A stretch of 64,000 bases of DNA from Clavibacter sp. B3I6 (GTDB lineage Bacteria > Actinomycetota > Actinomycetes > Actinomycetales > Microbacteriaceae): positions 3,069,682-3,133,681 of the forward strand of contig NZ_JAUSYL010000001.1 in the NCBI RefSeq assembly GCF_030816895.1, written 5' to 3'. Position numbers and translations under genes: made by a program. Below the pieces are notes generated by a model, which made no database searches, had not been told where the DNA came from, and saw only the letters and a list, made by a program, of their open reading frames with translations. Shown here piece after piece: positions 34,955 through 62,954 of this stretch. Position 1 is the first letter of the stretch. Each line of letters begins with the position of its first letter.

Positions 34955-35686
34955 TCAGGCGTCGGGATCGCGCGCCGGGTGCCGCGAGGAGACGGGCGCG
35001 CCGTGCCGCGCGTCCCGGTAGGCGGGGGCGCGGAGGCGGCGCGCCCAGGCGTACGTCGTGTCGCCGGGCGGGGCCGCGAGCACCGGGTCGACGCGCGTGG
35101 CGGTGTCGAGCGGGCCGGTGGCGTCGTGGGTCAGCTCGATGCGCGCGGCCACGTGCCACAGTCCGCGCGGCGTCGCGTGGACGAGCCGGAGCCCGAGCCG
35201 TCGGGTGGCGAGGGCGCGGCCGAGGTCCTCCGCGCCGGCGGGCAGCGGCGGATCCTGGTCCACCAGCACGCCGAGGAGCACCGGCCCGGTGGATCCGCGG
35301 TACGGCATCAGCGTCGTCATGCGGGCGCCGGAGAGGGAGCGCCTGGGCTGGAGCAGGAAGCGGCCGGGGAACCCGATGCCGGTCGTGGAGACGAGCACGT
35401 CGACGGTCGTGTCGCCGCCGTCGGGGATCCGCAGCGCGAGCCCGAGCACGTCGGGGAGCGCGGCGGGGGTCCCGGCTCCGCGCGAGAAGCGGGCGGTGAT
35501 CGCGAGCGGCGCGTCGAGCCCGTCGAGCCAGGCGAGGCCGGAGGCCGCGCGACCGGCGACGGGCGTCAGCGTGCCGGCGAGGGCGACCCCGGCCGGGTGG
35601 ATAGGACGGGGGCGGCGGACCAGCCGCACGGCGCGGATGAGGGCGGCGAGGACGTTCCCGCCGACGCGGGCCGGGATGTCGGTCAT
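34955..35686 (-). CDS. hypothetical protein
   Basis: 243-aa ORF with coding-like composition; no recognisable motif. Confidence 0.35.
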   Translation of the reverse strand: MTDIPARVGGNVLAALIRAVRLVRRPRPIHPAGVALAGTLTPVAGRAASGLAWLDGLDAPLAITARFSRGAGTPAALPDVLGLALRIPDGGDTTVDVLVSTTGIGFPGRFLLQPRRSLSGARMTTLMPYRGSTGPVLLGVLVDQDPPLPAGAEDLGRALATRRLGLRLVHATPRGLWHVAARIELTHDATGPLDTATRVDPVLAAPPGDTTYAWARRLRAPAYRDARHGAPVSSRHPARDPDA

Positions 35687-35834
35687 CGCTCGACCCTATT
35701 CCGATGCGCCTCCGGCGTCCCGGCCGCGGTCGAGGAGGCGCAGACGGCGGGGGACGCGACGACGCCCGGGTCGACCGTGCGGTCGACCCGGGCGTCGGGC
35801 GTGCGGGGCGTGCGGCGCCGGGAGGCGCGGTCCG

Positions 35835-36731
35835 CTACGGCGTGGGCATGCCGCCGTTGACGTGCAGCGTCTCGCCGATGACGTAGCTCGACTCGGGCGA
35901 GGCGAGGAACACGAACGCCGGGGCGAGCTCGGCGGGCTGGCCGGGGCGGCCGAGGGGGGTGTCCTCGCCGAACGACGGCAGCGCCTCGGCGGGCTGGCCG
36001 CCGGCGGTCTGCAGCGGGGTCCACACGGGGCCGGGCGCGACGACGTTCACGCGGATGCCCTTGGGCGCGAGCTGCTGCGCGAGGCCCTTCGAGAACGCGT
36101 TGATCGACGCCTTGGTGGTCGCGTAGTGGATGAGGTTCGGCGACGGCTGGTACGCCTGGATCGACGACGTGTTGATGATCGTGGAGCCGGGCTTCAGGTG
36201 CGCGAGGGCCGCCTTCGTGATCCAGAACATCGCGTAGACGTTGGTCTTGAAGGTGACGTCGAACTCCTCGTCCGAGATCTCCTCGAGCGTGTCGAAGTTC
36301 TGCTGCTTGCCCGCGTTGTTCACGAGGATGTCGAGGCCGCCGAGGCCCTCGACGGCCTTCGCGACGAGCTCGCGGCTGAACTCGGCCGTGGAGATGTCGC
36401 CGGGGATGGTGACGGCCTTCCGGCCGGCCTCCTCGATGAGGGCGACGACCTGCTTCGCGTCCTCCTCCTCCTCGGGGAGGTAGGAGAGGGCGATGTCCGC
36501 GCCCTCGCGGGCGAAGGCGATGGCGACGGCCGCGCCGATGCCCGAGTCGGCGCCCGTGATGAGGGCCTTGCGTCCCTCGAGGCGGCCGGATCCGCGGTAG
36601 CTCTTCTCGCCGCGGTCCGCGGTCTCCTGGAGGTCGGCGTCGAGGCCGGGTCCGTCCTGCTCCTGGGCGGTCGTGTCGATGCCGCTGTACATCGCGGCGG
36701 GGTCCTGGAAGGTGTACTGGTCGTCGCTCAT
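35835..36731 (-). CDS. SDR-family oxidoreductase (general stress protein 39 / YghA-like)
   Basis: 298 aa; TGADSGIG Rossmann motif; catalytic S...YxxxK. Confidence 0.8.
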   Translation of the reverse strand: MSDDQYTFQDPAAMYSGIDTTAQEQDGPGLDADLQETADRGEKSYRGSGRLEGRKALITGADSGIGAAVAIAFAREGADIALSYLPEEEEDAKQVVALIEEAGRKAVTIPGDISTAEFSRELVAKAVEGLGGLDILVNNAGKQQNFDTLEEISDEEFDVTFKTNVYAMFWITKAALAHLKPGSTIINTSSIQAYQPSPNLIHYATTKASINAFSKGLAQQLAPKGIRVNVVAPGPVWTPLQTAGGQPAEALPSFGEDTPLGRPGQPAELAPAFVFLASPESSYVIGETLHVNGGMPTP

Positions 36732-36789
36732 GGGGTCTCCTCGTGCTGGATCTGCGTGGGTGCGTGCGGATGCGGTGCGGGTGCCGGCG

Positions 36790-37083
36790 TCAGCTCGGCG
36801 GGGTGTCGTCCAGGTCGATGTCCTGGCCGGCGAGGTCGTTGGGGGCGAGCGCGGGCTCGGCCTCGCCGTCGACGCCGAGGGAGTCGGCCTCGGGCTCGGC
36901 GTTCGCGCCCATCACGGCGTCGTCGTCGTCGACCTGCTCGACGGGCTCGTCCGTGTCGGGGAGGACGGTCTCGCCGGCGACGGCGTCGTTGACGACCGTC
37001 TCCTTGTCGATGCCGACCACGTCGAGCGCGGTGTCGTCGCCGGTCGAGTCGTCACCGGGGGTGGTGGAGGTGGCGTCGGTCAT
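36790..37083 (-). CDS. small acidic disordered protein D (97 aa)
   Basis: D/E/P/T-rich; ATG 4 nt after the stop of protein C; codon usage GAC/GAG/CCC typical of the host. Confidence 0.45.
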   Translation of the reverse strand: MTDATSTTPGDDSTGDDTALDVVGIDKETVVNDAVAGETVLPDTDEPVEQVDDDDAVMGANAEPEADSLGVDGEAEPALAPNDLAGQDIDLDDTPPS

Positions 37084-37087
37084 CGGG

Positions 37088-37390
37088 TCACTCACCGGCC
37101 TCGGGCTTGGGGTGGCCGGGGATCGAGTCGCCGCTGAGGTTGAGCTCGTCGGGGTCGACGTCGATCTCGCCGACGTCGTCGGGGCCGCCGGAGCCGGGGA
37201 GCACCTGCACGTCGTCCTCGGCGTCGGGGGCGTCCGGCGAGACGGCGTCGCTCTCGGAGATCTGCTGCTCCTGCAGCACCTTGGTGTCGTCCTCGCTGGG
37301 CGAGGTGAAGTCCCTGTCCGGGAGCGTGTCGGAGGGCTCGAGGTGCGGGTAGTCGGTGTCCATGCGCTCGACGCTACGCTCGCCCTCCAA
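37088..37390 (-). CDS. small acidic disordered protein C (start uncertain; ATG at 37363 gives 91 aa)
   Basis: contains the SPDAPDAEDDVQV motif shared with paralogs. Confidence 0.45.
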   Translation of the reverse strand: MEGERSVERMDTDYPHLEPSDTLPDRDFTSPSEDDTKVLQEQQISESDAVSPDAPDAEDDVQVLPGSGGPDDVGEIDVDPDELNLSGDSIPGHPKPEAGE

Positions 37391-37464
37391 GGGCGTGGGG
37401 TGGCATCCGGCAAACGCCCATGAACGGTCCGCGGACGCCGCCGACCCGCTTCCCGAGGGCCGCG

Positions 37465-37620
37465 CTACTGGTCGTCCGGGCCCTCGCCGAACGGGTCGGG
37501 CTCGTCCTCGCGGGCGTCCTCCTCCTCTGCCTCCGCGCGGGTGGCGACCGAGTCCGCGTCGATCGGCTCGGGCTCGGCGAGCGGGGTCGGGGTGTGCTCG
37601 CGCGCGCCGGGATCCGTCAC
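37465..37620 (-). CDS. small acidic peptide B (51 aa, GTG start 1 nt after the stop of A)
   Basis: VTDPGAREHTPTPLAEPEPIDADSVATRAEAEEEDAREDEPDPFGEGPDDQ; below the ORF-track cutoff; tight coupling to A. Confidence 0.3.
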   Translation of the reverse strand: MTDPGAREHTPTPLAEPEPIDADSVATRAEAEEEDAREDEPDPFGEGPDDQ

Positions 37621-37621
37621 G

Positions 37622-37939
37622 TCAGCGGCCCTCGGGGTCGACGTGGCCCGCGGCGTCGTCCGCCGGCGCGCCCATGTGCGAGTCGGCGGCGGTGACCGCC
37701 CGGTTGTCGGGGACGGCGGGGTACTCGGCGTCGGCGGGATCCGCGTCCTCGACCTCGAGGGTGTCCTCCTCCGCGTGCCCGTACGTCGTGCCGTCGGGTT
37801 CGCGGACGGCGTCGCCGGTGCCCGCGGGGGCGTCGTCGCCGGCGGGGGAGACCACGTCGTCCACGGTCACCAGCCCGTCGGGATCGCCGGGGCCGCGCCC
37901 GGTGCGGATGCCGTCTGCCTGGTCTTCTCGGTCGCTCAT
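37622..37939 (-). CDS. small acidic disordered protein A (105 aa)
   Basis: AGGGTGGGAG upstream of the ATG; EVEDADPADAEYP motif. Confidence 0.45.
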   Translation of the reverse strand: MSDREDQADGIRTGRGPGDPDGLVTVDDVVSPAGDDAPAGTGDAVREPDGTTYGHAEEDTLEVEDADPADAEYPAVPDNRAVTAADSHMGAPADDAAGHVDPEGR

Positions 37940-38038
37940 GCTCCCACCCTACGAGCGACCCGTGCACGCGGAGGAGCCGCCGCCCGCTTCCGCGGACGAC
38001 GGCTCCTCGTCGTGGGGTGCCGGCGGGCACCGGGTGGG

Positions 38039-38497
38039 TCAGCTCGCGGCGGGCGCGCCCTGCTCCACCGTCAGCGTGCGCGCCTCCTGGCCCTGGGGCT
38101 CCTCGGACGTCACCGCGATCTTGCGCGGCTTCGCCCGCTCGCTCACCGGGATGGTGACGCTGAGCACGCCGTTGGCGTAGTGCGCGGAGATGCGCTCGGT
38201 GTCGATGCCCTGGCCGAGCGTGAGCTGGCGGAGGAACGTGCCGGCCACGCGCTCGCGGGTGAGCCAGCGGACGCCGGGGTCGCCGGCGAGCGTGCGCTCC
38301 GCGCGGATGGTCAGCAGCTGACCGTCCACGTCGATGTCGACGGAGCCCGGGTCGATGCCCGGCAGGTCGGCGGCCAGCACGTAGGTGTCGCCCTCGCGGT
38401 GCAGGTCGATGGGCATCGGACGGTTGGCCTGGCGGGTCTCGGCCAGCGCGCCCATGGCGCGGTCCAGCTCGCGGAACGGATCGAAGGTCATGTTCAT
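38039..38497 (-). CDS. Hsp20/alpha-crystallin small heat-shock protein
   Basis: 152 aa; ACD domain with the GVLTVTIP-like motif (GVLSVTIPV); RBS GAGGAG. Confidence 0.85.
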   Translation of the reverse strand: MNMTFDPFRELDRAMGALAETRQANRPMPIDLHREGDTYVLAADLPGIDPGSVDIDVDGQLLTIRAERTLAGDPGVRWLTRERVAGTFLRQLTLGQGIDTERISAHYANGVLSVTIPVSERAKPRKIAVTSEEPQGQEARTLTVEQGAPAAS

Positions 38498-38524
38498 GCT
38501 CGACTCCTCTGATGATCTGTGGGG

Positions 38525-38543
38525 TTGAGCCCACTCGGCTCAA
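38525..38543 (-). promoter_or_regulatory. HAIR-like inverted repeat TTGAGC-N7-GCTCAA (HspR-operator-like)
   Basis: compare the HAIR consensus CTTGAGT-N7-ACTCAAG; lies between the putative -10 and the RBS of hsp20. Confidence 0.45.
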
Positions 38544-38551
38544 CTACGTCG

Positions 38552-38581
38552 ACATTAGCACTCCGAGCAGGCGAGTGCCAA
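38552..38581 (-). promoter_or_regulatory. CIRCE element (TTAGCACTC-N9-GAGTGCcAA) overlapping a TTGGCA-18-TAATGT promoter
   Basis: 17/18 match to the HrcA-operator consensus with exact 9-nt spacer; -35 at 38576-38581 and -10 at 38552-38557 on the minus strand. Confidence 0.7.
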
Positions 38582-38619
38582 GCCGTTCGCCGAGGGCGAA
38601 TGTCACTCTCATCACCGGT

Positions 38620-38970
38620 TCAGGCGCGTCGACGGAGGTCGCGCTCCATGCGGCCGATGAGGGTCCATACCGCGCGCGAGAGGTCCGGGTGCTCCAGCGC
38701 GATCCCGCGCAGCAGCCGGTACTCGAAGCGCGCGACGACGCCCGGCGCGGTCGACGGATGGCGCACGCGCGCGAGCTCCTCCGCCAGCCCCGCGGCCTCG
38801 AGCGCGTCCTGGCGGAGGGTCGCCACCACGTGCTCGTCCACGGTGGGCAGCTCGGGGATGACCTCCCACGGGTCGTCCCCGTTCCGGCAGCGGTGCTCGA
38901 TCACGGCGTCCAGCTCGTCGCGGGCCTCCTGGCGCAGCACCTCGAGGCTGGCGGGGAAGCGGGCGTGCAC
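38620..38970 (-). CDS. hypothetical protein (116 aa)
   Basis: non-repetitive ORF from GTG with AGAGGA RBS; the opposite-strand ORF is compositional noise. Confidence 0.4.
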   Translation of the reverse strand: MHARFPASLEVLRQEARDELDAVIEHRCRNGDDPWEVIPELPTVDEHVVATLRQDALEAAGLAEELARVRHPSTAPGVVARFEYRLLRGIALEHPDLSRAVWTLIGRMERDLRRRA

Positions 38971-39043
38971 GGGCGGATCCTCTCGGGCGGTCGGGGTGGG
39001 GGACCCCGGCCTCGCGACCGGGTCCCCTTCACGCTACGTCATG

Positions 39044-39081
39044 CCCCGGACCGCCCCGGACCGCCTCGGACCGCCCCGGAC
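39044..39081. repeat. 10-bp tandem repeat x~4 (ccccggaccg) in a divergent promoter region
   Basis: read directly. Confidence 0.8.
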
Positions 39082-39133
39082 GGGGAGGCGGGACGCCGTG
39101 GGTAGCCTGGAGGCCCGGCCACCAGGAGGACCC

Positions 39134-39826
39134 ATGACCGACACCGCCCGCCCCGTCGCCCTCGTCACCGGGGCCACCCGCGGCATCGGCCGGGCGATCG
39201 CCGAGGACCTCGGCCGCACCCATCGCGTCATCGTGCACGGGCGCGACCGGGACGCCGTCGACGCGCTCGCCGCCTCCCTCCCGGACGCCGTCGGCTGGGC
39301 GGCCGACCTCGCCGCGGGCGGGCTGGACGCATTCGTCCCCGCGCTCGACCGGCTCGACGTCCTCGTGCACTCGGCCGGCGTGATCGGCGGCGACGCCGTC
39401 GACCGCACGCCCGTCGAGGAGTGGCGGCGCGTGTTCGAGGTCAACGTCTTCGCGGTCGCCGAGGTCACGCGGATCCTCCTGCCCGCGCTCCGGGCGGCCG
39501 GCGGGCAGGTCGTGCTCGTCAACTCCGGATCCGGCTTCACGGCGAACCCCACGGGCGGCGTCTACGCGGGATCCAAGTTCGCCCTCCGCGCGCTCGGCGA
39601 CGCCCTCCGCGAGGAGGAGCGTCCGCACGGCGTGCGCGTCTCGAGCGTGCACCCGGGCCGCGTCGCCACCGACATGCAGCGCGAGCTCCGCGCCAAGGAG
39701 GGCGGCGAGTACGACGCGGCGCGCTACCTCGAGCCCGCGTCCGTCGCGCGCGCCGTGCGCCTGGTCGTCGACCAGACCCGCGACGGCACGCTCGAGTCGG
39801 TGTCGCTGCGGCCGTTCGGGGGCTGA
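39134..39826 (+). CDS. SDR-family oxidoreductase
   Basis: 230 aa; AGGAGG RBS; TGATRGIG...YAGSK motifs. Confidence 0.8.
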   Translation: MTDTARPVALVTGATRGIGRAIAEDLGRTHRVIVHGRDRDAVDALAASLPDAVGWAADLAAGGLDAFVPALDRLDVLVHSAGVIGGDAVDRTPVEEWRRVFEVNVFAVAEVTRILLPALRAAGGQVVLVNSGSGFTANPTGGVYAGSKFALRALGDALREEERPHGVRVSSVHPGRVATDMQRELRAKEGGEYDAARYLEPASVARAVRLVVDQTRDGTLESVSLRPFGG

Positions 39827-41106: not shown

Positions 41107-41712
41107 ATGACCTCCTCCGCCGCCCCCGCCCCCCGGGCCGACGACCGCGCCGCCGACGACGCCACCGGCATCGACTGGGGATCGGGCGGCATCGAGACGC
41201 AGTTCGGCTGGTCCATCCAGGCCGTCTACCAGGGCTTCGCGCGCACGGCGCAGACCGCCGTGGCCGACGTGCCGGGCGGGCCGCGCGGCTACCAGGTGCT
41301 CGTCGCGATCACGACGGAGGAGGCCACCTCGCAGCTCGCGCTGGCGCAGCGCCTCGGCATCGACAAGACGCAGATGACCTACGTCATCGACGCGCTCGCC
41401 GACGGCGGCCTCGTCGAGCGGCAGCCGCACCCGCGGGACCGGCGCATCCGCCAGGTCGTGCCCACCGACGCCGGACGCGCCCTGCTCGAGACGGCCCGCG
41501 TGGCCCTCGGGGACGTCGAGGACGCCCTCATGCGCGACCTCGACCCCGACGAGCGCACGGCGCTCCGGCGGCTCCTCGCGCGCGTCGCCCTCGGCGCCGG
41601 CGACGCCGCCGCCTGCCTCCCCGACGGGCAGCCGATGGAGCAGCCCGTCGCCGCCCCCCACCGCTCGCGCCGACCGGCGCGCCGCACCCCCCGAGACGGA
41701 GACCACTCGTGA
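41107..41712 (+). CDS. MarR-family transcriptional regulator
   Basis: 201 aa; winged-HTH MarR core (..LAQRLGIDKTQMTYVIDALADGGLVERQPHPRDRR..). Confidence 0.8.
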   Translation: MTSSAAPAPRADDRAADDATGIDWGSGGIETQFGWSIQAVYQGFARTAQTAVADVPGGPRGYQVLVAITTEEATSQLALAQRLGIDKTQMTYVIDALADGGLVERQPHPRDRRIRQVVPTDAGRALLETARVALGDVEDALMRDLDPDERTALRRLLARVALGAGDAAACLPDGQPMEQPVAAPHRSRRPARRTPRDGDHS

Positions 41713-54510: not shown

Positions 54511-55362
54511 TCAGCCCGCGGGCGCGTGCAGCGGATCGTGCGGGGCGCGCTGGTGCGGGCGCGCCGGCGCGATGATCGTGCCGCGCCGTCCGAGCCCGTC
54601 GACCACGGGATCGGTCGCCCCCAGCACCTGCGAGCGCGCGGTGCCGTGGCGGGCCCAGTACGCCGCCGTCCACGCGCAGATGAGGCCGTCGAGCAGGTCC
54701 TCGAGGTGCTTGTGCTGCCGCTCCACGATCGCGGGTCCGTCGGCGACGAGGGCGGCCGCGCGCGGGTGCGTCGCCACGTCGAGCGGCGGATCCGCGTGCG
54801 CGAGCCCCGCGACCCGGTCGAGGACGATCCGGAACTCGGCGGCGCGGTGGGGGCGGCGGTCGGCGGTCGCGAGCAGCGGGGCGAGGCGCTTGTACCGCGG
54901 CTTCATGGCGTCGAAGCCGAGCTCCGGGGCGCCGACGAGCGTCGTGTACGGGTAGCACTCGATCATCGTGCGGGCGTCGTCGGCGCGGTCGGTGGCGGAG
55001 CCGTCGTCGTAGTCCCAGCCCGCCGCCTCGAGCCGCGTGCGGAGCGCGACGGCGCCCTGGGCGGGGCGGCCGGCGTTCGACGGGTAGGCGGAGATGCCGA
55101 GCCGGCCGTAGCGCGACGCGACCTCCTTCTCGGCGAGGCGGCTGCCGGTGGCGTTCGCGACGACCAGCGGGCCGTCGACGGCGGCGACCGCGCCGGGACC
55201 GCCCCACTCCTCCGTCCAGGCGACCACGGCGTCGATGCCGCGCGCCACCCGGAGGTCGAGCACGCGGCCCTCCTCGTCGATGCAGGCGAGCCCCGTCTCC
55301 CGGGCCGGACGGGCCGCCGTGCCCTCCGCCCAGGCGAGGTCGATCCCGAGGAAGCGGCGCAT
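54511..55362 (-). CDS. DUF429-domain protein (RNase-H-like fold)
   Basis: 283 aa; GIDLAW N-terminal motif. Confidence 0.55.
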   Translation of the reverse strand: MRRFLGIDLAWAEGTAARPARETGLACIDEEGRVLDLRVARGIDAVVAWTEEWGGPGAVAAVDGPLVVANATGSRLAEKEVASRYGRLGISAYPSNAGRPAQGAVALRTRLEAAGWDYDDGSATDRADDARTMIECYPYTTLVGAPELGFDAMKPRYKRLAPLLATADRRPHRAAEFRIVLDRVAGLAHADPPLDVATHPRAAALVADGPAIVERQHKHLEDLLDGLICAWTAAYWARHGTARSQVLGATDPVVDGLGRRGTIIAPARPHQRAPHDPLHAPAG

Positions 55363-57059: not shown

Positions 57060-58118
57060 CTAGGCGTCCGGGTCCGCGGCGGTGCGGGCCGGCGTGGTGC
57101 CGGACGCGTCGTCCGCGGAGGCGTCGTGCGCGGGCTCCTCGCGGTGCACGGATCCGGCGATGTCGGCCGGGGTGGGGACGTGCGGGGCGCCGGCGGCGGT
57201 CGGCTCCGGGGCCGCCTTCCGCTTCGGCGCGGGCGTCCCGGAGGCGGCCGTGGGAGTGGGCGCGGGCGCGGCGGGCACGGTCGGATCCGTCTCGGCGGCG
57301 GGCTCCTCGTCGGCGTCGGCCGGCTCGCCCAGGTCGTCGGGGCCGAGGGTGTCGAGGTCCTCGTCCGCGTCGTCCTCGGTGCCGTCCGCGGAGGCGTCGG
57401 CCTCGCCGGCGCGCGCGGCGCCGTCCTCGGGGATCGGGACGGGGCCGGTCTCGTCCTCGTCGTCGAAGGACGCGAGCGCCTCGTCGCGCGCCTCGGCGGC
57501 CGTGAAGACGGCGCGGCGGCCGGCCTCCTCGCCGCGCTCGCGCAGGTCCTCGGCCGTCGCCTGGACGCGCGTGCGCGCCTCCTCGGCGGTCTCGACGACG
57601 CGGCCGCGGACGTCCTCGGCCGTCTCGGCGACGCGGTGGCCGACCTCGGTGGCCTGCTGGCCGACGCGGTCGACGACGTGCTTGGTCTGGTCCGCCGTGC
57701 GGGTGCCGAGGTCCTTGGCGGTGTCGCCGACCCGTCCCGCGATGTCCTGGGTGGTGCTGCCGACCCGGCCCGCGATGTCCTGGGTCGTGCTGCCGACGCG
57801 ACCGGCGACGTCCTGCGTGGTGGTGCCGATGCGCTCGCCCACGGTGTGCGCGGTGCGGCCGACGGCGACGGCGGCGCCCTGGACGGCGTGCCCGACGAAG
57901 TCCGCGACCTCGCGCGCCGTCTCGACCGTGCGCTCGACGACGACCGGCCCCTTCTCGTCGAGGACGGCCTGCGCCTCGCGGACGCCCCGCTGCACGGGTG
58001 CGCTCGACCAGACGGTGCGCGACGCGCGGGCGATGCCCTCGTAGCGCTTCCGGCCGGCACGTGCGCCGAGGACGTAGCCGGTGCCGAGCCCGGCGAGGAG
58101 GAGGAGACGGTTGATCAT
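57060..58118 (-). CDS. YtxH/LEA-like membrane-anchored stress protein with 11-residue repeats and an acidic tail
   Basis: N-terminal TM (LLLLAGLGTGYVLGARAGRKRYE); three tandem TTQD(V/I)AGRVGS repeats encoded by 33-bp DNA repeats; long D/E/P-rich C-terminus. Confidence 0.6.
   Translation of the reverse strand: MINRLLLLAGLGTGYVLGARAGRKRYEGIARASRTVWSSAPVQRGVREAQAVLDEKGPVVVERTVETAREVADFVGHAVQGAAVAVGRTAHTVGERIGTTTQDVAGRVGSTTQDIAGRVGSTTQDIAGRVGDTAKDLGTRTADQTKHVVDRVGQQATEVGHRVAETAEDVRGRVVETAEEARTRVQATAEDLRERGEEAGRRAVFTAAEARDEALASFDDEDETGPVPIPEDGAARAGEADASADGTEDDADEDLDTLGPDDLGEPADADEEPAAETDPTVPAAPAPTPTAASGTPAPKRKAAPEPTAAGAPHVPTPADIAGSVHREEPAHDASADDASGTTPARTAADPDA
57721..57830. repeat. 33-bp tandem repeat (~3.5 copies) inside the LEA-like gene
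   Basis: gtgctgccgacccggcccgcgatgtcctgggtg units. Confidence 0.8.
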
Positions 58119-58161: not shown

Positions 58162-58299
58162 CTACGCGTCCCGCCCGCCCTGGGGGCCCGTGGCGTCGTG
58201 CACCTCGTCCGCGTCGGGATCCGCCGCGTCGGGCGCGTTGAGGTCGGCGTCCTCCGGGATGGAGTGGTCGTGGATCGGGTCCTGCGGCTGGTCGGTCAT
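58162..58299 (-). CDS. small acidic peptide (45 aa), paralog of the A-D family
   Basis: MTDQPQDPIHDHSIPEDADLNAPDAADPDADEVHDATGPQGGRDA; shares the PEDAD..APDA.D.DA motif; weak RBS. Confidence 0.3.
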   Translation of the reverse strand: MTDQPQDPIHDHSIPEDADLNAPDAADPDADEVHDATGPQGGRDA

Positions 58300-58340
58300 G
58301 CGGTCGAGCCTACGCGCGGGCGTCGACCGCCCGACCCGGG

Positions 58341-59219
58341 TCAGAGGATGCGCGTGTGCGTGGTGAGCGAGCCGATGCCCTCGACCGAGACGGTGACCGT
58401 GCTGCCGTCCTTCAGGAAGATCTGCGGGTCGCGCGAGTAGCCGGCGCCGCTCGTGGTGCCCGTGGAGATGAGCGTGCCCGGCTGCAGCGTGGAGGAGGTG
58501 GAGAGGTAGGAGACGAGGCGCGCGACCGTGCGGACCATGCCGCTCGTGCGTCCGTCCTGCACCGTCTCGCCGTCGAGGACCGTGGTGATGCGGAGGTCCT
58601 GCGGATCCGGCACCTCGTCGCGCGTGACGACGACGGGACCCGTGGGGGAGAAGCCGTCGAAGCTCTTGCAGCGGCTCCACTGCTGCTCCGAGAACTGCAG
58701 GTTGCGGGCCGTGATGTCGTTGACGACCGTGTAGCCGAAGACGTGGTCGAGGGCGTCCGCCTCCGACACGTCGCGCGCGGCCCGGCCGATGACGACGCCG
58801 AGCTCGACCTCGTAGTCGACCTCCTCGCTGAGCGAGCGCGGCCAGCTGGTGGTGCCCTCGTGGCCCGAGAGCGAGTTGGGCCAGAGCGCGAAGACGGTGG
58901 GGGCGGAGGCGCTCGTGATGTTGAGCTCCTCGGCGTGCGCGGAGTAGTTGAGGCCCACGGCGTAGACGGCCGGCGGGCGGAGGATCGCGGAGGCGTGCGT
59001 GAGGCCGTCCACCGGGGTGGTGCTGGTGCGGCTGGCGACGGCGCGCTCGACGGTGGCGCGGACGCGGGCCATCTCGTCGTCGCCGCGCTCGATGAGGTCC
59101 TGCAGGTCGCGAGGGGACTCGTCGAGCACCTCGTCGAGGAAGAGCGCCTGGCCCTCGGAGACGATGGCGGCCAGTCGGGGGGTCACGCCGTCGTCGGCGA
59201 GCAGGTGCGCGAACTTCAT
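58341..59219 (-). CDS. fumarylacetoacetate-hydrolase (FAH) family protein
   Basis: 292 aa; FAH-fold metal-binding E..E..D pattern. Confidence 0.8.
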   Translation of the reverse strand: MKFAHLLADDGVTPRLAAIVSEGQALFLDEVLDESPRDLQDLIERGDDEMARVRATVERAVASRTSTTPVDGLTHASAILRPPAVYAVGLNYSAHAEELNITSASAPTVFALWPNSLSGHEGTTSWPRSLSEEVDYEVELGVVIGRAARDVSEADALDHVFGYTVVNDITARNLQFSEQQWSRCKSFDGFSPTGPVVVTRDEVPDPQDLRITTVLDGETVQDGRTSGMVRTVARLVSYLSTSSTLQPGTLISTGTTSGAGYSRDPQIFLKDGSTVTVSVEGIGSLTTHTRIL

Positions 59220-59329: not shown

Positions 59330-61852
59330 TCAGTCCTCGCGCACGACCTCGTCGGGGGACTTGTCGTGCCGCCAGCCCCGCCACGAGGCCTGGCGGAGGC
59401 GGCCGGTCGCGGTCCACTCGGCGAACTCGACCTCGCCGACGAGGCGCGGGGTGATCCAGTGCGCGTCGCGGGCGTCGGCGGCCGGCACGTCGGCGAAGGG
59501 GGTCGTCTTCCGCTCGAGCGGCCGGAAGCGTCGGAGGGCGTCGGCCAGGTCGCGCTCCGTGAAGCCCGTGCCGACGCGGCCCGCGTACGCGAGGCCGTCC
59601 GGTCCGGGCACGCCGACGAGCAGCGAGCCGACGCCGGAGGAGCGGCTGCCGGATCCGGGGCGCCAGCCGCCCACGACCACCTCCTGCGCCCGGTGGTGCT
59701 TGACCTTCACCCACGCGCTCGACCGCCGCCCGGACTCGTAGGGCGCGTCCACGCGCTTGGCGACGACGCCCTCGAGGCCGAGCTCGCGGCTGGTGGCGAG
59801 GGCGTCGTCGAGGTCGCCGTCGAACGCGGGCGGGACCTGGATGCGGCCGCGGTCCGGCGCGCGCACGGCGTCGAGGAGGGCGGCGCGGCGCTCCCGGTAC
59901 GGCGCGTCGACGAGGACGCGGTCGCCGATGGCGAGCGCGTCGAAGAGCATGAGGTGCACGGGCGCGGCCTTCCGGGCCCGGGCGACGTCCTTCTCCGCGG
60001 TGAGGCCGAGGCGCGTCTGCAGGAGCCCGAAGTCGGGCCGGCCGTCGGCGCCCAGCACGACGATCTCGCCGTCGAGCACGGCCGCGTCCACGTCGAGCTG
60101 GTCCGGCAGCTCGGCGAGCTCGGGGAAGGCGGCCGTGAGGTCGACGCCGTTGCGGCTCGTGATGGTCGCGCGGCCGTCCGCGACGACGGCGATCGCGCGG
60201 TAGCCGTCCCACTTCATCTCGACGGCCCACTCCTCGTCGGGGTCGAGGCCGGCGGCGGTCGCGGCGGTCGCGAGCATGGGCGCGGGGGCGGACGCCGCGC
60301 CGCCTCGCCGCCGGGCGCCGACGCGCGTGCGTCCGCCCGCCTTCTCGAGCTTCGCGGCGCGCGCGGGCCGTGCGTGCGCCGTCGCGGGCGCGTCGGCGGG
60401 CTCCATCAGGTGGATCAGCCAGTTCGCGTCGGCCTTGCCGTGCCCGCCCGTGTGGATGAGCGCGTAGCGGCGCGGCCCGTCGATCCCGGTGCCCGCGCCG
60501 CGCCCGTGCAGCGTCGCGATGACCTCCTTCCCGTCGCGCCACTTCTCCAGCTCGTAGGTGCCCGCGTCCCAGATGGCGACCTCGCCGCCGCCGTACTCGC
60601 CCGCGGGGATGGTGCCCTCGAAGGAGCCGTACTCGACGGGGTGGTCCTCGGTCTGCACCGCGAGGTGGTTCGTGCCGTGCTCGGTGGGCACGCCCTTGGG
60701 GAGGGCCCAGCTCACGAGCACGCCGTCGTGCTCCAGCCGGAAGTCCCAGTGCAGCGCGCGGGCGTGGTGCTCCTGGATCACGAAGGACCGGCCCTCGGAC
60801 GGCGCGGGCGGCTCCGCGGGGACCGGCTCGCTCGTCTTGGCGGCGTCGCGCTTGGCGCGGTAGGTCGCGAGGCGGTCGGATCCGGGATCGGGCGCGTCGC
60901 CCGTGCCCTCCTTCCGCGCGAAGGAGGCCAGGCGCTCGGGCGTGGGCTCCAGGCTCTCCCGGTTGCCCTCCTCGACGGGGGCGAGCGGATCCTCCCGCGT
61001 CCGCATGCGGTCGAGGACCTCGTGCATCTCCAGGTGGCGCAGGGCGGGCGACGCGAGCTCGCGCCAGGTGCGCGGCACCGCGACGGTCGGCCGCGAGCGC
61101 CCGCGCAGCGAGTACGGCGCCACCGTGGTCTTGTTCGGGTTGTTCTGGCTCCAGTCGACGAGCACCTTGCCCTGCCGGAGCGCCTTCTTCATGTCGCTCA
61201 CCACGAGGTCCGGGTGGTCGGCCTCGAGCGCGCGGGCGAGCTCGTGCGCGACCTCGGAGATCGCCGCGGCGTCGTGGCTGCCGTCGAGGGCGGCGTAGAG
61301 GTGGATGCCCTTGGATCCGCTCGTCACCGGGTAGGGCTCGAGGCCCATGTCGCGGAGGATCGCGCGGGCCGCCTTCGCGACCTCCACGCACTCGGGGAGG
61401 CCGGCGCCCGGGCCCGGGTCGAGGTCGAGCACGAGCCGGTCGGGTCGGCGGACGTCGCCCGTGCGGCCGAAGCGCCACTGGGGCACGTGCAGCTCGAGCG
61501 CGGCGATCTGCCCGAGCCAGGTGAGGGTCGCGACGTCGTTCGCCAGGGGGTAGTCGTTGGCGTGGTCGCGGTGCTGGATGGCGCGGCGCAGCACCCACTC
61601 CGGCGTGTGCGCGTCGAGGTCCTTCTGGAAGAACATCTTCCCCGGGTGCTCGTCGGTGCCGACGCCGTCGACCCAGCGCTTGCGCGTGACGGGCCGGTCG
61701 CGCAGGTGCGGGATCATGTGCGGCGCTACGCCTGCGTAGTACGCGATGACGTCGCCCTTGGTGGTGCCCGTCTCCGGGTAGAGCACCTTGTCGAGGTTCG
61801 ACAGCGTGATCCGCCGCCCCTCGACCTCCACCTGCTGCTTCGCGCCCGCCAT
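59330..61852 (-). CDS. ligD: multidomain ATP-dependent DNA ligase LigD (Pol - PE - Lig)
   Basis: polymerase/primase domain, phosphoesterase domain (FVIQEHHARALHWDFRLE), ligase domain with KxDG (EMKWDGYR); start trimmed to Met-28 of the listed ORF so it does not overlap ku. Confidence 0.85.
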   Translation of the reverse strand: MAGAKQQVEVEGRRITLSNLDKVLYPETGTTKGDVIAYYAGVAPHMIPHLRDRPVTRKRWVDGVGTDEHPGKMFFQKDLDAHTPEWVLRRAIQHRDHANDYPLANDVATLTWLGQIAALELHVPQWRFGRTGDVRRPDRLVLDLDPGPGAGLPECVEVAKAARAILRDMGLEPYPVTSGSKGIHLYAALDGSHDAAAISEVAHELARALEADHPDLVVSDMKKALRQGKVLVDWSQNNPNKTTVAPYSLRGRSRPTVAVPRTWRELASPALRHLEMHEVLDRMRTREDPLAPVEEGNRESLEPTPERLASFARKEGTGDAPDPGSDRLATYRAKRDAAKTSEPVPAEPPAPSEGRSFVIQEHHARALHWDFRLEHDGVLVSWALPKGVPTEHGTNHLAVQTEDHPVEYGSFEGTIPAGEYGGGEVAIWDAGTYELEKWRDGKEVIATLHGRGAGTGIDGPRRYALIHTGGHGKADANWLIHLMEPADAPATAHARPARAAKLEKAGGRTRVGARRRGGAASAPAPMLATAATAAGLDPDEEWAVEMKWDGYRAIAVVADGRATITSRNGVDLTAAFPELAELPDQLDVDAAVLDGEIVVLGADGRPDFGLLQTRLGLTAEKDVARARKAAPVHLMLFDALAIGDRVLVDAPYRERRAALLDAVRAPDRGRIQVPPAFDGDLDDALATSRELGLEGVVAKRVDAPYESGRRSSAWVKVKHHRAQEVVVGGWRPGSGSRSSGVGSLLVGVPGPDGLAYAGRVGTGFTERDLADALRRFRPLERKTTPFADVPAADARDAHWITPRLVGEVEFAEWTATGRLRQASWRGWRHDKSPDEVVRED

Positions 61853-61889
61853 CGGTCCAGCATGGCCCGGGCCGGTGTTCACTTGACCC

Positions 61890-62954
61890 ATGAGAGCCAT
61901 CTGGAAGGGCGCCGTCACCTTCGGCCTCGTCAACGTGCCCGTGAAGGTCTACAGCGCGACGCAGGACCACGACGTGCCGCTGCACCAGGTCCACGACGCC
62001 GACGGCGGCCGGATCCGCTACCAGCGCCGCTGCGAGATCTGCGGGAAGATCGTCGACTACGCGCACATCGACAAGGCGTTCGACGACGGCGACCGCACGG
62101 TCGTGATCACGGAGGAGGACCTCTCCTCCCTCCCCGAGGAGAAGAGCCGCGAGATCGACGTGGTCGAGTTCGTGCCGAGCGACCAGATCGACCCCGTGAT
62201 GCTCGACCGCAGCTACTTCCTCGAGCCGGACTCCTCGAGCCCCAAGTCGTACGCGCTCCTCCGCCGGACGCTGCAGGAGACGGACCGTACGGCGATCGTG
62301 CACGTGACCCTCCGCCAGCGCACCCGGCTCGCGGCGCTGCGGGTCCGCGGCGACGTGCTCATGCTGCAGACGCTCCTCTGGGACGACGAGGTGCGCGAGG
62401 CCGACTTCCCGTCGCTCGACGCCGCCCCGAAGGTGTCGCCGCGGGAGCTGAAGATGTCGGCGCAGCTCGTCGAGGGGTTCGCGGAGGACTTCGACCCGTC
62501 GAAGTTCAGCGACGAGTACCAGGAGCAGCTGAAGACCCTCATCGACGCGAAGCTCGCGCAGGGCGACTCGCTCGACACGGACGCGACCTTCGGGGAGTCC
62601 GACGACGACGAGGACACCGGCGGCGAGGTGCTCGACCTCATGGACGCGCTGAAGCGCAGCATCGAGCGGAGCAGGGGCGGGGGAGGCGCGAAGCGGAAGG
62701 CGCCCGCGCGGAAGCCCGCGGGGGAGGGGAAGGCGGCGGCGTCGGAGGACGCGGAGGACGCGGACGACGCGTCGGCGGAGGCAGCGACCACGACGGCGGC
62801 GGCGAAGAAGACGGCGACGAAGAAGACGGCGACGAAGAAGGCGTCGACCGCGAAGGCCGCGGCGACGAAGAAGGCGACGACGACCACGAAGACGACGACG
62901 ACGACGCGGTCGACGGCCGCGGGGAAGCGGACCGCAGAGAAGAAGAGCGCCTAG
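61890..62954 (+). CDS. ku: Ku protein (NHEJ) with Lys/Thr/Ala-rich C-terminal tail
   Basis: 354 aa; Ku core (MRAIWKGAVTFGLVNVPVKVYSA...); C-terminal KKTAT-type repeats. Confidence 0.9.
   Translation: MRAIWKGAVTFGLVNVPVKVYSATQDHDVPLHQVHDADGGRIRYQRRCEICGKIVDYAHIDKAFDDGDRTVVITEEDLSSLPEEKSREIDVVEFVPSDQIDPVMLDRSYFLEPDSSSPKSYALLRRTLQETDRTAIVHVTLRQRTRLAALRVRGDVLMLQTLLWDDEVREADFPSLDAAPKVSPRELKMSAQLVEGFAEDFDPSKFSDEYQEQLKTLIDAKLAQGDSLDTDATFGESDDDEDTGGEVLDLMDALKRSIERSRGGGGAKRKAPARKPAGEGKAAASEDAEDADDASAEAATTTAAAKKTATKKTATKKASTAKAAATKKATTTTKTTTTTRSTAAGKRTAEKKSA

What the first reader, a model, noticed from the sequence alone, without database searches (positions are those of the whole stretch)
36790..37939. 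Tandem operon of four small acidic intrinsically disordered proteins downstream of hsp20, with a fifth paralog at 58162-58299
Seen in sequence:
- Four consecutive minus-strand ORFs (105, 51, ~91 and 97 aa) are extremely D/E/P/T/A-rich. They have host-like codon usage and tight spacing: A to B 1 nt, C to D 4 nt.
- They sit between hsp20 and a GSP39-like SDR.
- A 45-aa ORF next to the LEA-like gene shares a recognisable motif with them: PEDADLNAPDAADPDADEV vs SPDAPDAEDDVQV vs EVEDADPADAEYP.
- The opposite strand has only V/G/R-rich noise ORFs.

Inference:
- This looks like a paralogous family of hydrophilin-like or chaperone-accessory disordered proteins co-expressed with the heat-shock and stress genes.
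- No characterised family is recognisable, and several members fall below standard gene-calling length cutoffs.
Basis: partly seen in the sequence, partly recalled or inferred. Interest (0 to 1): 0.6.

Follow-up and report, generated by a model that had tools for sequence, protein, structure and literature searches.

The report
Small acidic disordered proteins, Clavibacter
The five small acidic reading frames are real, conserved genes for disordered proteins of unknown function, already annotated as hypothetical proteins; they are not relatives of one another and are tied to a downstream dehydrogenase gene rather than to hsp20.

Summary
The window is from Clavibacter sp. B3I6. All five ORFs exist at the stated coordinates and are real genes. 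GC3 is 0.93-0.98. Reading frames and gene order are conserved in five other Clavibacter species. In-ORF indels are multiples of three. dN/dS is 0.24-0.64.

- **Not paralogs.** Profile-profile and shuffle tests show nothing beyond shared composition. A positive control (D against its Planctomonas homolog) scores E 7e-12.
- **Not an hsp20 operon.** hsp20 is absent next to A in four other species and has its own CIRCE operator.
- **Two leaderless units.** A and C each have a conserved TANNNT -10 box 6-7 nt before the ATG. B and D are translationally coupled to them.
- **Link to the SDR.** The GSP39-like SDR follows D in every Clavibacter locus examined. It has no -10 box of its own, so C-D-SDR co-transcription is likely.
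- **Uneven spread.** C belongs to a Microbacteriaceae-wide orphan family (133 clusters) with an invariant C-terminal motif. D is shared with Planctomonas. A, B and E were seen only in Clavibacter and unnamed metagenome contigs.

All are predicted disordered and match no Pfam, NCBIfam, PDB, PADLOC or PHROG family. Function is unknown; a stress or dormancy role through short binding motifs is my best guess, held weakly.

The parts
37622..37939 (-). Gene A: 105-aa acidic disordered protein (QFZ62_002968). Seen only in Clavibacter and unnamed metagenome contigs.
   Evidence: GC3 0.93. dN/dS 0.24. 61 invariant columns in 14 homologs. 20 homologs, all Clavibacter or unnamed metagenome sequences. No Pfam match.
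37946..37951 (-). -10-like box TAGGGT, 6 nt before the ATG of A. Inferred promoter of a leaderless A-B mRNA.
   Evidence: TAGGGT in four of the five aligned Clavibacter sequences and TAGGCT in C. lycopersici, while the sequence further upstream is unrelated.
37465..37620 (-). Gene B: 51-aa acidic protein, GTG start 1 nt after the A stop (translationally coupled). C-terminus PDPFGEGPDD invariant.
   Evidence: Only one possible start. The start codon swaps GTG/ATG at the same position between species. GC3 0.96. dN/dS 0.64. Alignment A5. Orthologs annotated in other species.
37371..37376 (-). -10-like box TAGCGT, 7 nt before the ATG of C. Inferred promoter of a leaderless C-D(-SDR) mRNA.
   Evidence: Invariant block GAGCGTAGCGTCG in five species. 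The same TAGCGT precedes the ATG of C homologs in Subtercola and Planctomonas. In Agreia I read it from the residues RHRSVER that precede the conserved Met in the annotated product.
37088..37363 (-). Gene C: 91-aa acidic protein (QFZ62_002966). Member of a Microbacteriaceae-wide orphan family with the motif VLPGTGGPDDVGDIEVDPSELNLSGDSIPGHPKP.
   Evidence: GC3 0.98. dN/dS 0.33. AF2 pLDDT 60.6. Antisense frames not conserved.
36790..37083 (-). Gene D: 97-aa acidic protein (QFZ62_002965). ATG 4 nt after the C stop; in sister species a GTG overlaps the stop (GTGA). Homolog in Planctomonas.
   Evidence: Planctomonas homolog by hmmsearch E 1.2e-9 and hhalign 97.5%. dN/dS 0.43. AF2 pLDDT 60.9.
35835..36731 (-). 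YdaD/GSP39-like SDR, 58 nt downstream of D with a GAGGAG Shine-Dalgarno and no -10-like box of its own. Probable last gene of the C-D transcript.
   Evidence: Pfam adh_short_C2, 8.6e-63. It follows D in all six Clavibacter-type loci. No TANNNT between the C box and the SDR start in the window or in the four orthologous loci L001-L004. 51 of 75 orthologs in other genera have a TANNNT within 150 nt upstream, against 0 of 5 Clavibacter-type loci.
58162..58299 (-). Gene E: 45-aa acidic protein (QFZ62_002988) between a fumarylacetoacetate-hydrolase gene and a LEA-like gene. Not related to A-D.
   Evidence: GC3 0.98. Homologs of 73-89% identity on six metagenome contigs, with conserved core DPIHDHSIPEDAD. 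dN/dS 0.53 overall, 0.32 for codons 1-38. No similarity to A-D.
58307..58312 (-). -10-like box TAGGCT, 7 nt before the ATG of E (leaderless type).
   Evidence: GCGCGTAGG(C/G)T conserved in all eight E loci.
38039..38497 (-). hsp20: upstream neighbour in this strain only, a separate heat-shock unit.
   Evidence: Pfam HSP20, 8e-21. Not next to A in other species. Own -10 box TAATGT at 38552-38557 and CIRCE.
38555..38581 (.). CIRCE inverted repeat (TTGGCACTC-N9-GAGTGCTAA) in the hsp20 promoter region.
   Evidence: One match with 1 mismatch; 0 expected in 100 shuffles.

Best explanation
**What it is (shown).** These are five real genes for small, strongly polyanionic, intrinsically disordered cytoplasmic proteins. 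They belong to unrelated, lineage-restricted orphan families.

**Organisation (shown or strongly indicated).**
- A-B and C-D are two adjacent bicistrons.
- A and C each begin 6-7 nt after a conserved TANNNT -10 box. That is the signature of leaderless mRNAs in Actinobacteria.
- B and D start 1-4 nt after, or overlapping, the preceding stop codon, so each is probably made together with its upstream partner.
- In Clavibacter the block always lies directly upstream of a YdaD/GSP39-type SDR that has no -10 box of its own.
- E is a separate leaderless mini-gene in front of a LEA-like repeat protein.

**Inferred.** C, D and the SDR are one transcript. Read-through from A is possible.

**Function (low confidence).** Each protein keeps long invariant stretches inside an otherwise variable, structure-less acidic chain. 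That pattern is typical of short linear binding motifs. I therefore think they act by binding partners or cations during stationary-phase, stress or dormancy physiology, alongside the SDR, rather than as enzymes. The leading model is a highly charged protectant that keeps other proteins soluble under heat, osmotic or drying stress.
For: **Coding.**
- GC3 0.93-0.98.
- Synteny and frame conservation in five further loci.
- Indels in multiples of 3 and an excess of third-position changes.
- dN/dS 0.24-0.64.
- Antisense frames not conserved.

**Leaderless promoters.**
- TANNNT is rare here: 39 sites in 64 kb on both strands. 14 of them lie 6-7 nt before the start of a high-GC3 ORF, including A, C, E and the LEA-like gene.
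- The boxes are conserved across species while flanking DNA is not.
- In M. tuberculosis the TANNNT -10 is the dominant promoter element and a quarter of genes are leaderless (PMC3898074).

**Coupling.** Stop/start geometry and the GTG/ATG swap at the B start.

**SDR linkage.**

**Disorder.**

**Conserved motifs.**

**Family spread.**

**Stress flavour, weak.**
- The SDR is of the type named general stress protein 39 in B. subtilis (my own knowledge).
- E sits before a protein with 11-residue repeats.
- C homologs lie beside or within about 3.4 kb of DUF3140 genes in Subtercola and Planctomonas.
- Leaderless mRNAs rise in starved M. tuberculosis.
Against: - No expression data were available, so transcription start sites, co-transcription and translation are all inferred from sequence.
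- The -10 boxes are of the general housekeeping type shared by unrelated genes in the window. They do not indicate stress control.
- Outside Clavibacter, C homologs have no conserved neighbour. The SDR ortholog in 75 loci of other genera has no acidic ORFs beside it. The SDR link may therefore be a genus-level accident of gene order.
- Invariant, protein-specific motifs fit specific partner binding better than a generic shield.
- The hydrophilin criteria are only partly met.
- B has dN/dS 0.64, and above 1 in two pairs.
Confidence: 0.55

Rival explanations
1. One reading: A-E form one paralogous family of hydrophilin-like chaperone accessories, transcribed with hsp20 as a heat-shock operon.
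For: - Shared composition, and in this strain adjacency to hsp20 on the same strand with a 99-nt gap.
- No terminator-like site between hsp20 and A, so read-through cannot be excluded.
- Short look-alike strings exist, for example PFGEGPDD in B against PGSGGPDD in C.
Against: - No pair of families is significantly similar, although the method detects the true D homolog.
- hsp20 is absent upstream of A in four other species.
- A has its own conserved -10 box, and homology between species begins only there.
- hsp20 carries a CIRCE operator that A-D lack.
Confidence: 0.08
2. They are specific regulators or adaptors. Each disordered acidic chain carries a short linear motif that docks onto a defined, probably basic, partner such as a nucleic-acid-binding protein, RNA polymerase or a ribosomal protein, and blocks or redirects it in the way nucleic-acid mimics or anti-factors do. 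A pairs with B and C with D.
For: - Long invariant blocks inside otherwise variable chains: 22 invariant residues (D9-V30) at the N-terminus of A, and about 35 residues in C that are conserved across a bacterial family.
- Translational coupling suggests fixed stoichiometry.
- Net charge is -15 to -28.
- A weak, sub-threshold hit of A to the small regulator AfsS (E 0.03, 14.8 bits against a cut-off of 60).
Against: - No partner can be named.
- There is no conserved neighbour outside Clavibacter.
- The AfsS hit is far below threshold.
- No structural model is good enough to test mimicry.
Confidence: 0.25
3. They are divalent-cation (Ca2+ or Mg2+) binding or buffering proteins, using their D-x-D-x-D type strings.
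For: D+E is 27-35%. Strings such as DVDPDE (C), DIDLDD (D), DADS (B) and DADPAD (A) are conserved.
Against: - No match to any calcium-binding Pfam family.
- The strings lack the glycine of the DxDxDG loop.
- Such strings are expected by composition alone.
Confidence: 0.08
4. They are not functional genes. They are either chance ORFs of a 74% G+C genome or frameshifted fragments of a decayed larger gene.
For: - Long open frames are common on both strands here.
- The four frames alternate between two phases.
- B evolves fast.
Against: - Frame-specific GC3.
- The same ORF boundaries, start codons and coupling junctions in six genomes.
- Purifying selection.
- Protein-level conservation of C across many genera with open sense frames and broken antisense frames.
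- No longer homolog that would represent an intact ancestor.
Confidence: 0.02

Closest known systems
Hydrophilins and LEA-type stress proteins (and the highly charged 'Hero' protectant proteins of animals)
   Same: They are small, very hydrophilic and predicted disordered, with no enzymatic domain. They lie near general-stress-type genes (SDR, hsp20 in this strain, a LEA-like repeat protein next to E).
   Different: - They have no LEA Pfam domain and no 11-residue repeats.
- They carry almost no lysine; the charge is purely negative.
- The hydrophilin numerical criteria are met only by E, and borderline by B and C.
- Each protein has its own invariant motif, which points to specific binding.
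DUF5709 (PF18970), acidic actinobacterial proteins of unknown function
   Same: UniRef labels the cluster of one A homolog (P0147, C. nebraskensis) 'DUF5709 domain-containing protein'. From memory, the C-terminus of A (SAPADDAAGHVDPE) resembles the DUF5709 consensus.
   Different: hmmscan of A and 13 homologs, including P0147, against Pfam gives no DUF5709 hit even at E <= 10. DUF5709 itself has no known function; it is mentioned only as an accessory gene of some Streptomyces encapsulin operons (PMC8346489).
AfsS, the small regulatory protein of Streptomyces (NCBIfam NF053616)
   Same: It is small and without a recognised domain. It is the only named family with any hit to A (residues 64-92).
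   Different: The score is 14.8 bits against a cut-off of 60, E 0.03. I saw no repeated AfsS-type motif. Not a member.
Pup, the prokaryotic ubiquitin-like protein of Actinobacteria
   Same: It is a small, acidic, disordered actinobacterial protein that works through a short binding region.
   Different: There is no Pfam Pup hit. From my own knowledge, Pup ends in GGQ or GGE; the termini here are PEGR, PDDQ, EAGE, TPPS and GRDA. No proteasome or Pup-ligase genes lie nearby.
Leaderless, translationally coupled small-gene pairs of Actinobacteria (for example toxin-antitoxin modules)
   Same: A TANNNT box lies directly before the start codon, and the second gene overlaps or abuts the first stop (PMC3898074).
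   Different: Neither partner matches a toxin or antitoxin family. Both partners are acidic and disordered.

Membership tests
Hydrophilins | Glycine above 6% and mean hydrophilicity index above 1 (Kyte-Doolittle GRAVY below -1) | tested here: inconclusive
   A: Gly 12%, GRAVY -0.84 (fails). B: 6%, -1.39 (borderline). C: 8%, -1.00 (borderline). D: 8%, -0.51 (fails). E: 7%, -1.22 (meets).
Hydrophilins | Accumulation under water deficit | not testable with these tools
   No expression data available.
LEA proteins | Match to a LEA Pfam family, or tandem 11-residue amphipathic repeats | tested here: not met
   No Pfam hit for A-E. The neighbour of E (57060-58118) does have 33-nt repeats; A-E do not.
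DUF5709 (PF18970) | Match to the Pfam model | tested here: not met
   No hit for A or for 13 homologs at E <= 10. Only a UniRef label on P0147's cluster.
AfsS (NF053616) | Score at or above the curated cut-off of 60 bits | tested here: not met
   14.8 bits, E 0.032.
   hhalign E 0.15-0.29. Shuffle test p 0.15-0.89 for all ten pairs. Positive control E 7e-12.
hsp20 operon | Conserved adjacency to hsp20 and no promoter of its own | tested here: not met
   hsp20 absent upstream of A in L001-L004. Conserved -10 box before A.
Leaderless mRNA genes of Actinobacteria | TANNNT -10 box ending about 6-8 nt before the start codon, no Shine-Dalgarno | tested here: met
   A, C and E, conserved in orthologs. 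The transcription start itself is not mapped.
Leaderless mRNA genes of Actinobacteria | Mapped 5' end at the start codon | not testable with these tools
   Needs 5'-end RNA sequencing.
C-type orphan family (Microbacteriaceae small proteins with the LPGTGGPDD motif) | Full-length profile match including YSPxSE...Q and LPGTGGPDDxGDxxVDP | tested here: met
   C matches 55 proteins by word search. The family profile finds 133 clusters at E <= 1e-3. Alignments A2 and A6.

The most novel reading that the evidence does not exclude
The C-type protein is the founding member of an undescribed, Microbacteriaceae-wide class of small polyanionic disordered proteins. They would work through an invariant roughly 35-residue linear motif. 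In Clavibacter and Planctomonas they have recruited lineage-specific acidic partners (D, then A and B), and in Clavibacter an oxidoreductase, into one leaderless expression unit. This would be a bacterial counterpart of highly charged protectant or adaptor proteins with a specific, still unknown, target.
Probability: 0.2. Interest if true: 0.55.

Novelty: new member of a known kind. Interest (0 to 1): 0.3.

Why it matters
Small disordered acidic proteins are rarely studied in bacteria, and they fall outside domain databases.

This work turns a loose 'paralog cluster' into a defined set of testable units:
- two leaderless coupled gene pairs joined to a general-stress-type dehydrogenase;
- one orphan family (C) spread over a whole bacterial family, with a sharply conserved motif suitable for partner fishing.

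Clavibacter species are seed-borne plant pathogens that must survive drying. If these proteins aid survival in the dry or dormant state they would be of practical interest. As it stands the result is modest, because the genes are already annotated as hypothetical proteins and their function remains unknown.

Tried and rejected
- **Family libraries.** Pfam, NCBIfam, PADLOC and PHROGs scans of A-E and of the family alignments gave no usable hit.
- **Solved structures.** PDB sequence search with the C and A profiles found nothing.
- **RNA families.** Rfam over 35500-39500 found nothing.
- **Promoter and terminator scan.** The classical sigma-70 and terminator scan found nothing, as expected at 74% G+C.
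- **Structure prediction.** C and D were modelled in the hope of a fold to search with. Both came out unstructured, so I ran no fold search.
- **Gene neighbourhood of C homologs.** I looked in seven genera (Agreia, Subtercola, Planctomonas, Marisediminicola, Frigoribacterium, Microbacterium, Herbiconiux) and found no conserved neighbour. SDR genes recur near C in Agreia and Frigoribacterium, and in one apparent fusion (P0273). SDRs are too common for that to count, and the P0273 locus could not be retrieved.
- **Longer proteins in the C profile search.** These (P0152, P0250, P0261, P0273) carry unrelated domains in front of the motif. I take them to be run-on gene calls on short contigs.
- **Planctomonas 94-aa ORF upstream of C.** It is not related to A or B.
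- **A stress-specific promoter motif shared by A, C, E and the LEA-like gene.** Rejected: the shared (C)GTAGSST is simply the general -10 box, also found before unrelated genes.
- **A single frameshifted gene.** Rejected because junctions and start codons are conserved.
- **Antisense ORF 37107-37352 (+) with GC3 1.0.** An artefact. It shares third positions with C, has GC1 0.40 below GC2 0.74, and that antisense frame is broken by stops in four of the seven non-Clavibacter homolog loci checked.
Full report
**Source and observation**

Exact-sequence look-up places the window in the chromosome of Clavibacter sp. B3I6. A, C, D and E are annotated there as hypothetical proteins QFZ62_002968, _002966, _002965 and _002988. 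hsp20 and the SDR were also found in the collection, named by their sources as Hsp20 and glucose 1-dehydrogenase.

- A: 37622-37939
- B: 37465-37620
- C: 37088-37363
- D: 36790-37083

E is at 58162-58299.

D+E content is 27-35%, net charge -12 to -28, and computed pI about 4. None of the other genes I called in the window exceeds 19% D+E.

**Are they coding?**

The window is about 74% G+C, so open frames alone mean little. Several independent lines show the five ORFs are genes.

- **Codon-position G+C.** GC3 is 0.93-0.98 and GC2 0.41-0.54, like hsp20 and the SDR.
- **Synteny.** A scan of one genome per species with the SDR as probe returned 80 loci. Only the five Clavibacter-type loci carry A-B-C-D directly upstream of the SDR, in the same order and frames. 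These are C. nebraskensis, C. lycopersici, Clavibacter sp. VKM Ac-2873, C. michiganensis subsp. insidiosus and one metagenome-assembled genome.
- **Indels.** In a five-species DNA alignment, every indel inside an ORF is a multiple of three, whereas the B-C spacer has single-base indels.
- **Position of changes.** Variable columns are concentrated at third positions: A 13/15/40 and D 17/15/39 for codon positions 1/2/3.
- **Selection.** Mean pairwise dN/dS is A 0.24, B 0.64, C 0.33, D 0.43 and SDR 0.22.
- **Start of B.** It switches between GTG and ATG at the same nucleotide and is the only start available.
- **E.** Six more divergent copies (73-89% identity) from metagenome contigs keep the 44-45-codon frame. 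dN/dS is 0.53 overall and 0.32 over codons 1-38.
- **Opposite strand.** Its ORFs have non-coding G+C patterns. The one with GC3 of 1.0 (37107-37352) merely shares third positions with C. The antisense frames of C contain stops in most of the homologous loci checked in other genera, while the sense frame is always open.

**Are they paralogs?**

No similarity beyond composition was found.
- Profile-profile comparison of the A, B, C and D family alignments gives E 0.15-0.29 and probability below 1%.
- Smith-Waterman scores for all ten pairs among A-E are no better than scores against shuffled partners (p 0.15-0.89).
- As a positive control, the D profile finds an 81-aa Planctomonas protein at 97.5% probability, E 7e-12 (also hmmsearch 1.2e-9).

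**Distribution**

| Protein | Spread |
|---|---|
| A | 20 homologs, all Clavibacter or unnamed metagenome sequences |
| B | Only in the Clavibacter-type loci held here; orthologs annotated in several Clavibacter species |
| C | Subtercola, Agreia, Planctomonas, Marisediminicola, Frigoribacterium, Microbacterium, then many more by profile search |
| D | 26 Clavibacter or unnamed metagenome homologs by word search, plus Planctomonas immediately after its C homolog |
| E | Clavibacter-type sequences only |

C is the exception. A profile search of 1.84 billion representative proteins gives 133 clusters at E <= 1e-3. Most are proteins of 53-135 aa; four of 156-182 aa look like run-on gene calls. 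Every named one among the ten I looked up is a Microbacteriaceae 'hypothetical protein' (Herbiconiux, Leifsonia, Okibacterium, Leucobacter). The family has a variable acidic N-terminal half with a YSPxSExET..Q patch. It also has a nearly invariant C-terminal block, VLPGTGGPDDVGDIEVDPSELNLSGDSIPGHPKP.

No Pfam, NCBIfam, PDB, PADLOC or PHROG family matches any of the five. A UniRef label 'DUF5709' on the cluster of one A homolog is not reproduced by hmmscan. A weak AfsS hit scores 14.8 bits against a cut-off of 60.

**Anatomy of the locus**

In this G+C-rich window the hexamer TANNNT occurs only 39 times on both strands. Fourteen of these lie 6-7 nt upstream of the start codon of a high-GC3 ORF. 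That is the signature of leaderless transcripts. In M. tuberculosis TANNNT is the dominant promoter element, no -35 motif is found, and a quarter of genes are leaderless (PMC3898074).

A (TAGGGT), C (TAGCGT), E (TAGGCT) and the LEA-like gene after E (TAGGCT) all have such a box.
- The boxes before A and C are conserved in all five aligned species. Upstream of the A box the sequences are unrelated.
- The TAGCGT-spacer-ATG arrangement also precedes C homologs in Subtercola and Planctomonas. In Agreia I read it from the residues that precede the conserved Met in the annotated product.
- The E box is conserved in all eight E loci.

On the minus strand between 35000 and 39500 there are only five TANNNT sites:
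- 39031-39036, upstream of the 116-aa ORF
- 38552-38557, hsp20
- 37946-37951, A
- 37371-37376, C
- 35693-35698, the gene after the SDR

None lies between the C box and the SDR start. The same holds in the four orthologous loci examined, L001-L004. By contrast, 51 of the 75 SDR orthologs in other genera have a TANNNT within 150 nt upstream, against 0 of 5 Clavibacter-type loci.

I therefore read the locus as two leaderless units, A-B and C-D-SDR. B and D are translationally coupled:
- B follows the A stop as TGAcGTG.
- D overlaps the C stop as GTGA in sister species, and lies 4 nt after it here.

This organisation is inferred from sequence, not measured.

**Relation to hsp20**

hsp20 is adjacent only in this strain. 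It is not found in the upstream sequence available for A in the other four species. In C. nebraskensis the neighbour is a divergent 768-aa ORF, which I did not scan against any family.

hsp20 has its own -10 box, and a CIRCE inverted repeat overlaps it (38555-38581, one mismatch, none expected by chance). It is therefore a classical, separately controlled heat-shock gene. Read-through into A cannot be excluded, because no terminator is recognisable. Even so, 'operon downstream of hsp20' is not a conserved property.

**Structure**

All five proteins fall on the disordered side of the charge-hydropathy plot, whereas hsp20 and the SDR fall on the ordered side. AlphaFold2 with family alignments gives pLDDT 60.6 and pTM 0.16 for C, and 60.9 and 0.12 for D, with essentially no secondary structure. 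None has a signal-peptide-like N-terminus; this is read directly from the sequences.

**What they probably do**

Nothing here demonstrates a function. The facts that constrain it are these:
- The chains are extremely negative, disordered and without a domain.
- Each carries long invariant blocks, the hallmark of short linear binding motifs.
- Production is in coupled pairs.
- In Clavibacter there is an obligate position in front of an SDR of the type known in B. subtilis as general stress protein 39 (my own knowledge).
- E lies in front of a protein with a hydrophobic N-terminus and 11-residue repeats.
- The mRNAs are leaderless, a class that gains weight in growth-arrested mycobacteria.

My best guess is that they belong to stationary-phase or stress physiology and act as highly charged protectants or adaptors. 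I give the protectant version about 30%. A specific regulator or adaptor role is nearly as likely (about 25%), and the motif conservation favours it. Cation binding is a minor alternative.

Against any stress reading:
- The -10 boxes are of the general type.
- C homologs have no conserved neighbours in other genera.
- SDR orthologs elsewhere lack acidic neighbours.

**Verdict**

The useful new points are three: the leaderless, coupled two-unit architecture joined to the SDR, the recognition of C as a family-wide orphan with a sharp motif, and the C-D pair shared with Planctomonas. This is a new member of a known, loosely defined kind (small lineage-restricted acidic disordered proteins). Interest is moderate to low.

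Noticed in passing
window 38555-38581 and 38525-38550: A CIRCE operator (TTGGCACTC-N9-GAGTGCTAA, one mismatch to the consensus, none expected by chance) overlaps the -10 box TAATGT of hsp20. It is followed by a second inverted repeat, TTGAGCC-N5-GGCTCAA, that loosely resembles the HspR operator. This suggests hsp20 is under HrcA control and perhaps dual heat-shock control.
   Followed up: partly
window, whole (list): Fourteen genes in the window have a TANNNT box 6-7 nt before their start codon. About a quarter of the genes here look leaderless, including the fumarylacetoacetate hydrolase (58341-59219), the LEA-like gene, a MarR regulator (41107-41712) and a DUF429 gene (54511-55362).
   Followed up: partly
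window 57060-58118 (-): The 'LEA-like' neighbour of E has a hydrophobic N-terminus, two arrays of 33-nt (11-residue) repeats (about 3.1 and 3.7 copies) and an acidic tail. It has only sub-threshold Pfam hits (Apolipoprotein, YtxH, DUF948). It follows E in all eight loci examined.
   Followed up: partly
window 38620-38970 (-); L084 8238-8585: A 116-aa ORF just upstream of hsp20 has no Pfam match. By eye it has a clear homolog in Planctomonas psychrotolerans, beside a DUF3140 gene and about 3 kb from that genome's C-D pair. A DUF3140 gene also lies divergently next to the C homolog in Subtercola boreus (L083).
   Followed up: no
L084 3643-5587 (Planctomonas psychrotolerans): Planctomonas has its own run of small acidic ORFs: 118 aa, then 94 aa, then the C homolog, then the D homolog. 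The 94-aa protein is unrelated to A or B. Clusters of unrelated small acidic genes around C-D may therefore arise repeatedly.
   Followed up: partly
protein P0077 (Clavibacter tessellarius), alignment A2 columns about 120-140: This C homolog replaces the core motif GSGGPDDVGEIDVDPDE with DRADPTTSGRSTSTPTR and then returns to the normal sequence. That looks like a pair of compensating frameshifts, or sequencing errors, in one genome.
   Followed up: no
window 59330-62954: LigD (59330-61933, -) and, by my reading, a Ku-type protein (61890-62954, +, not scanned against any family) lie next to the fumarylacetoacetate hydrolase, E and LEA-like genes. These are non-homologous end-joining genes, which from my own knowledge are associated with dormancy and drying tolerance in Actinobacteria.
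   Followed up: no
cluster 5: The 90%-identity cluster of the 152-aa Hsp20 also lists many 115-116-aa Clavibacter proteins named 'hypothetical protein' or 'Tryptophan synthase subunit alpha'. These may be truncated start calls or a clustering oddity.
   Followed up: no
window 37107-37352 (+): An 81-aa antisense ORF inside C has GC3 of 1.0 because its third positions coincide with those of C. This is a trap for GC3-based gene calling. Its GC1 (0.40) is below its GC2 (0.74), and that antisense frame is not conserved in other genera.
   Followed up: yes
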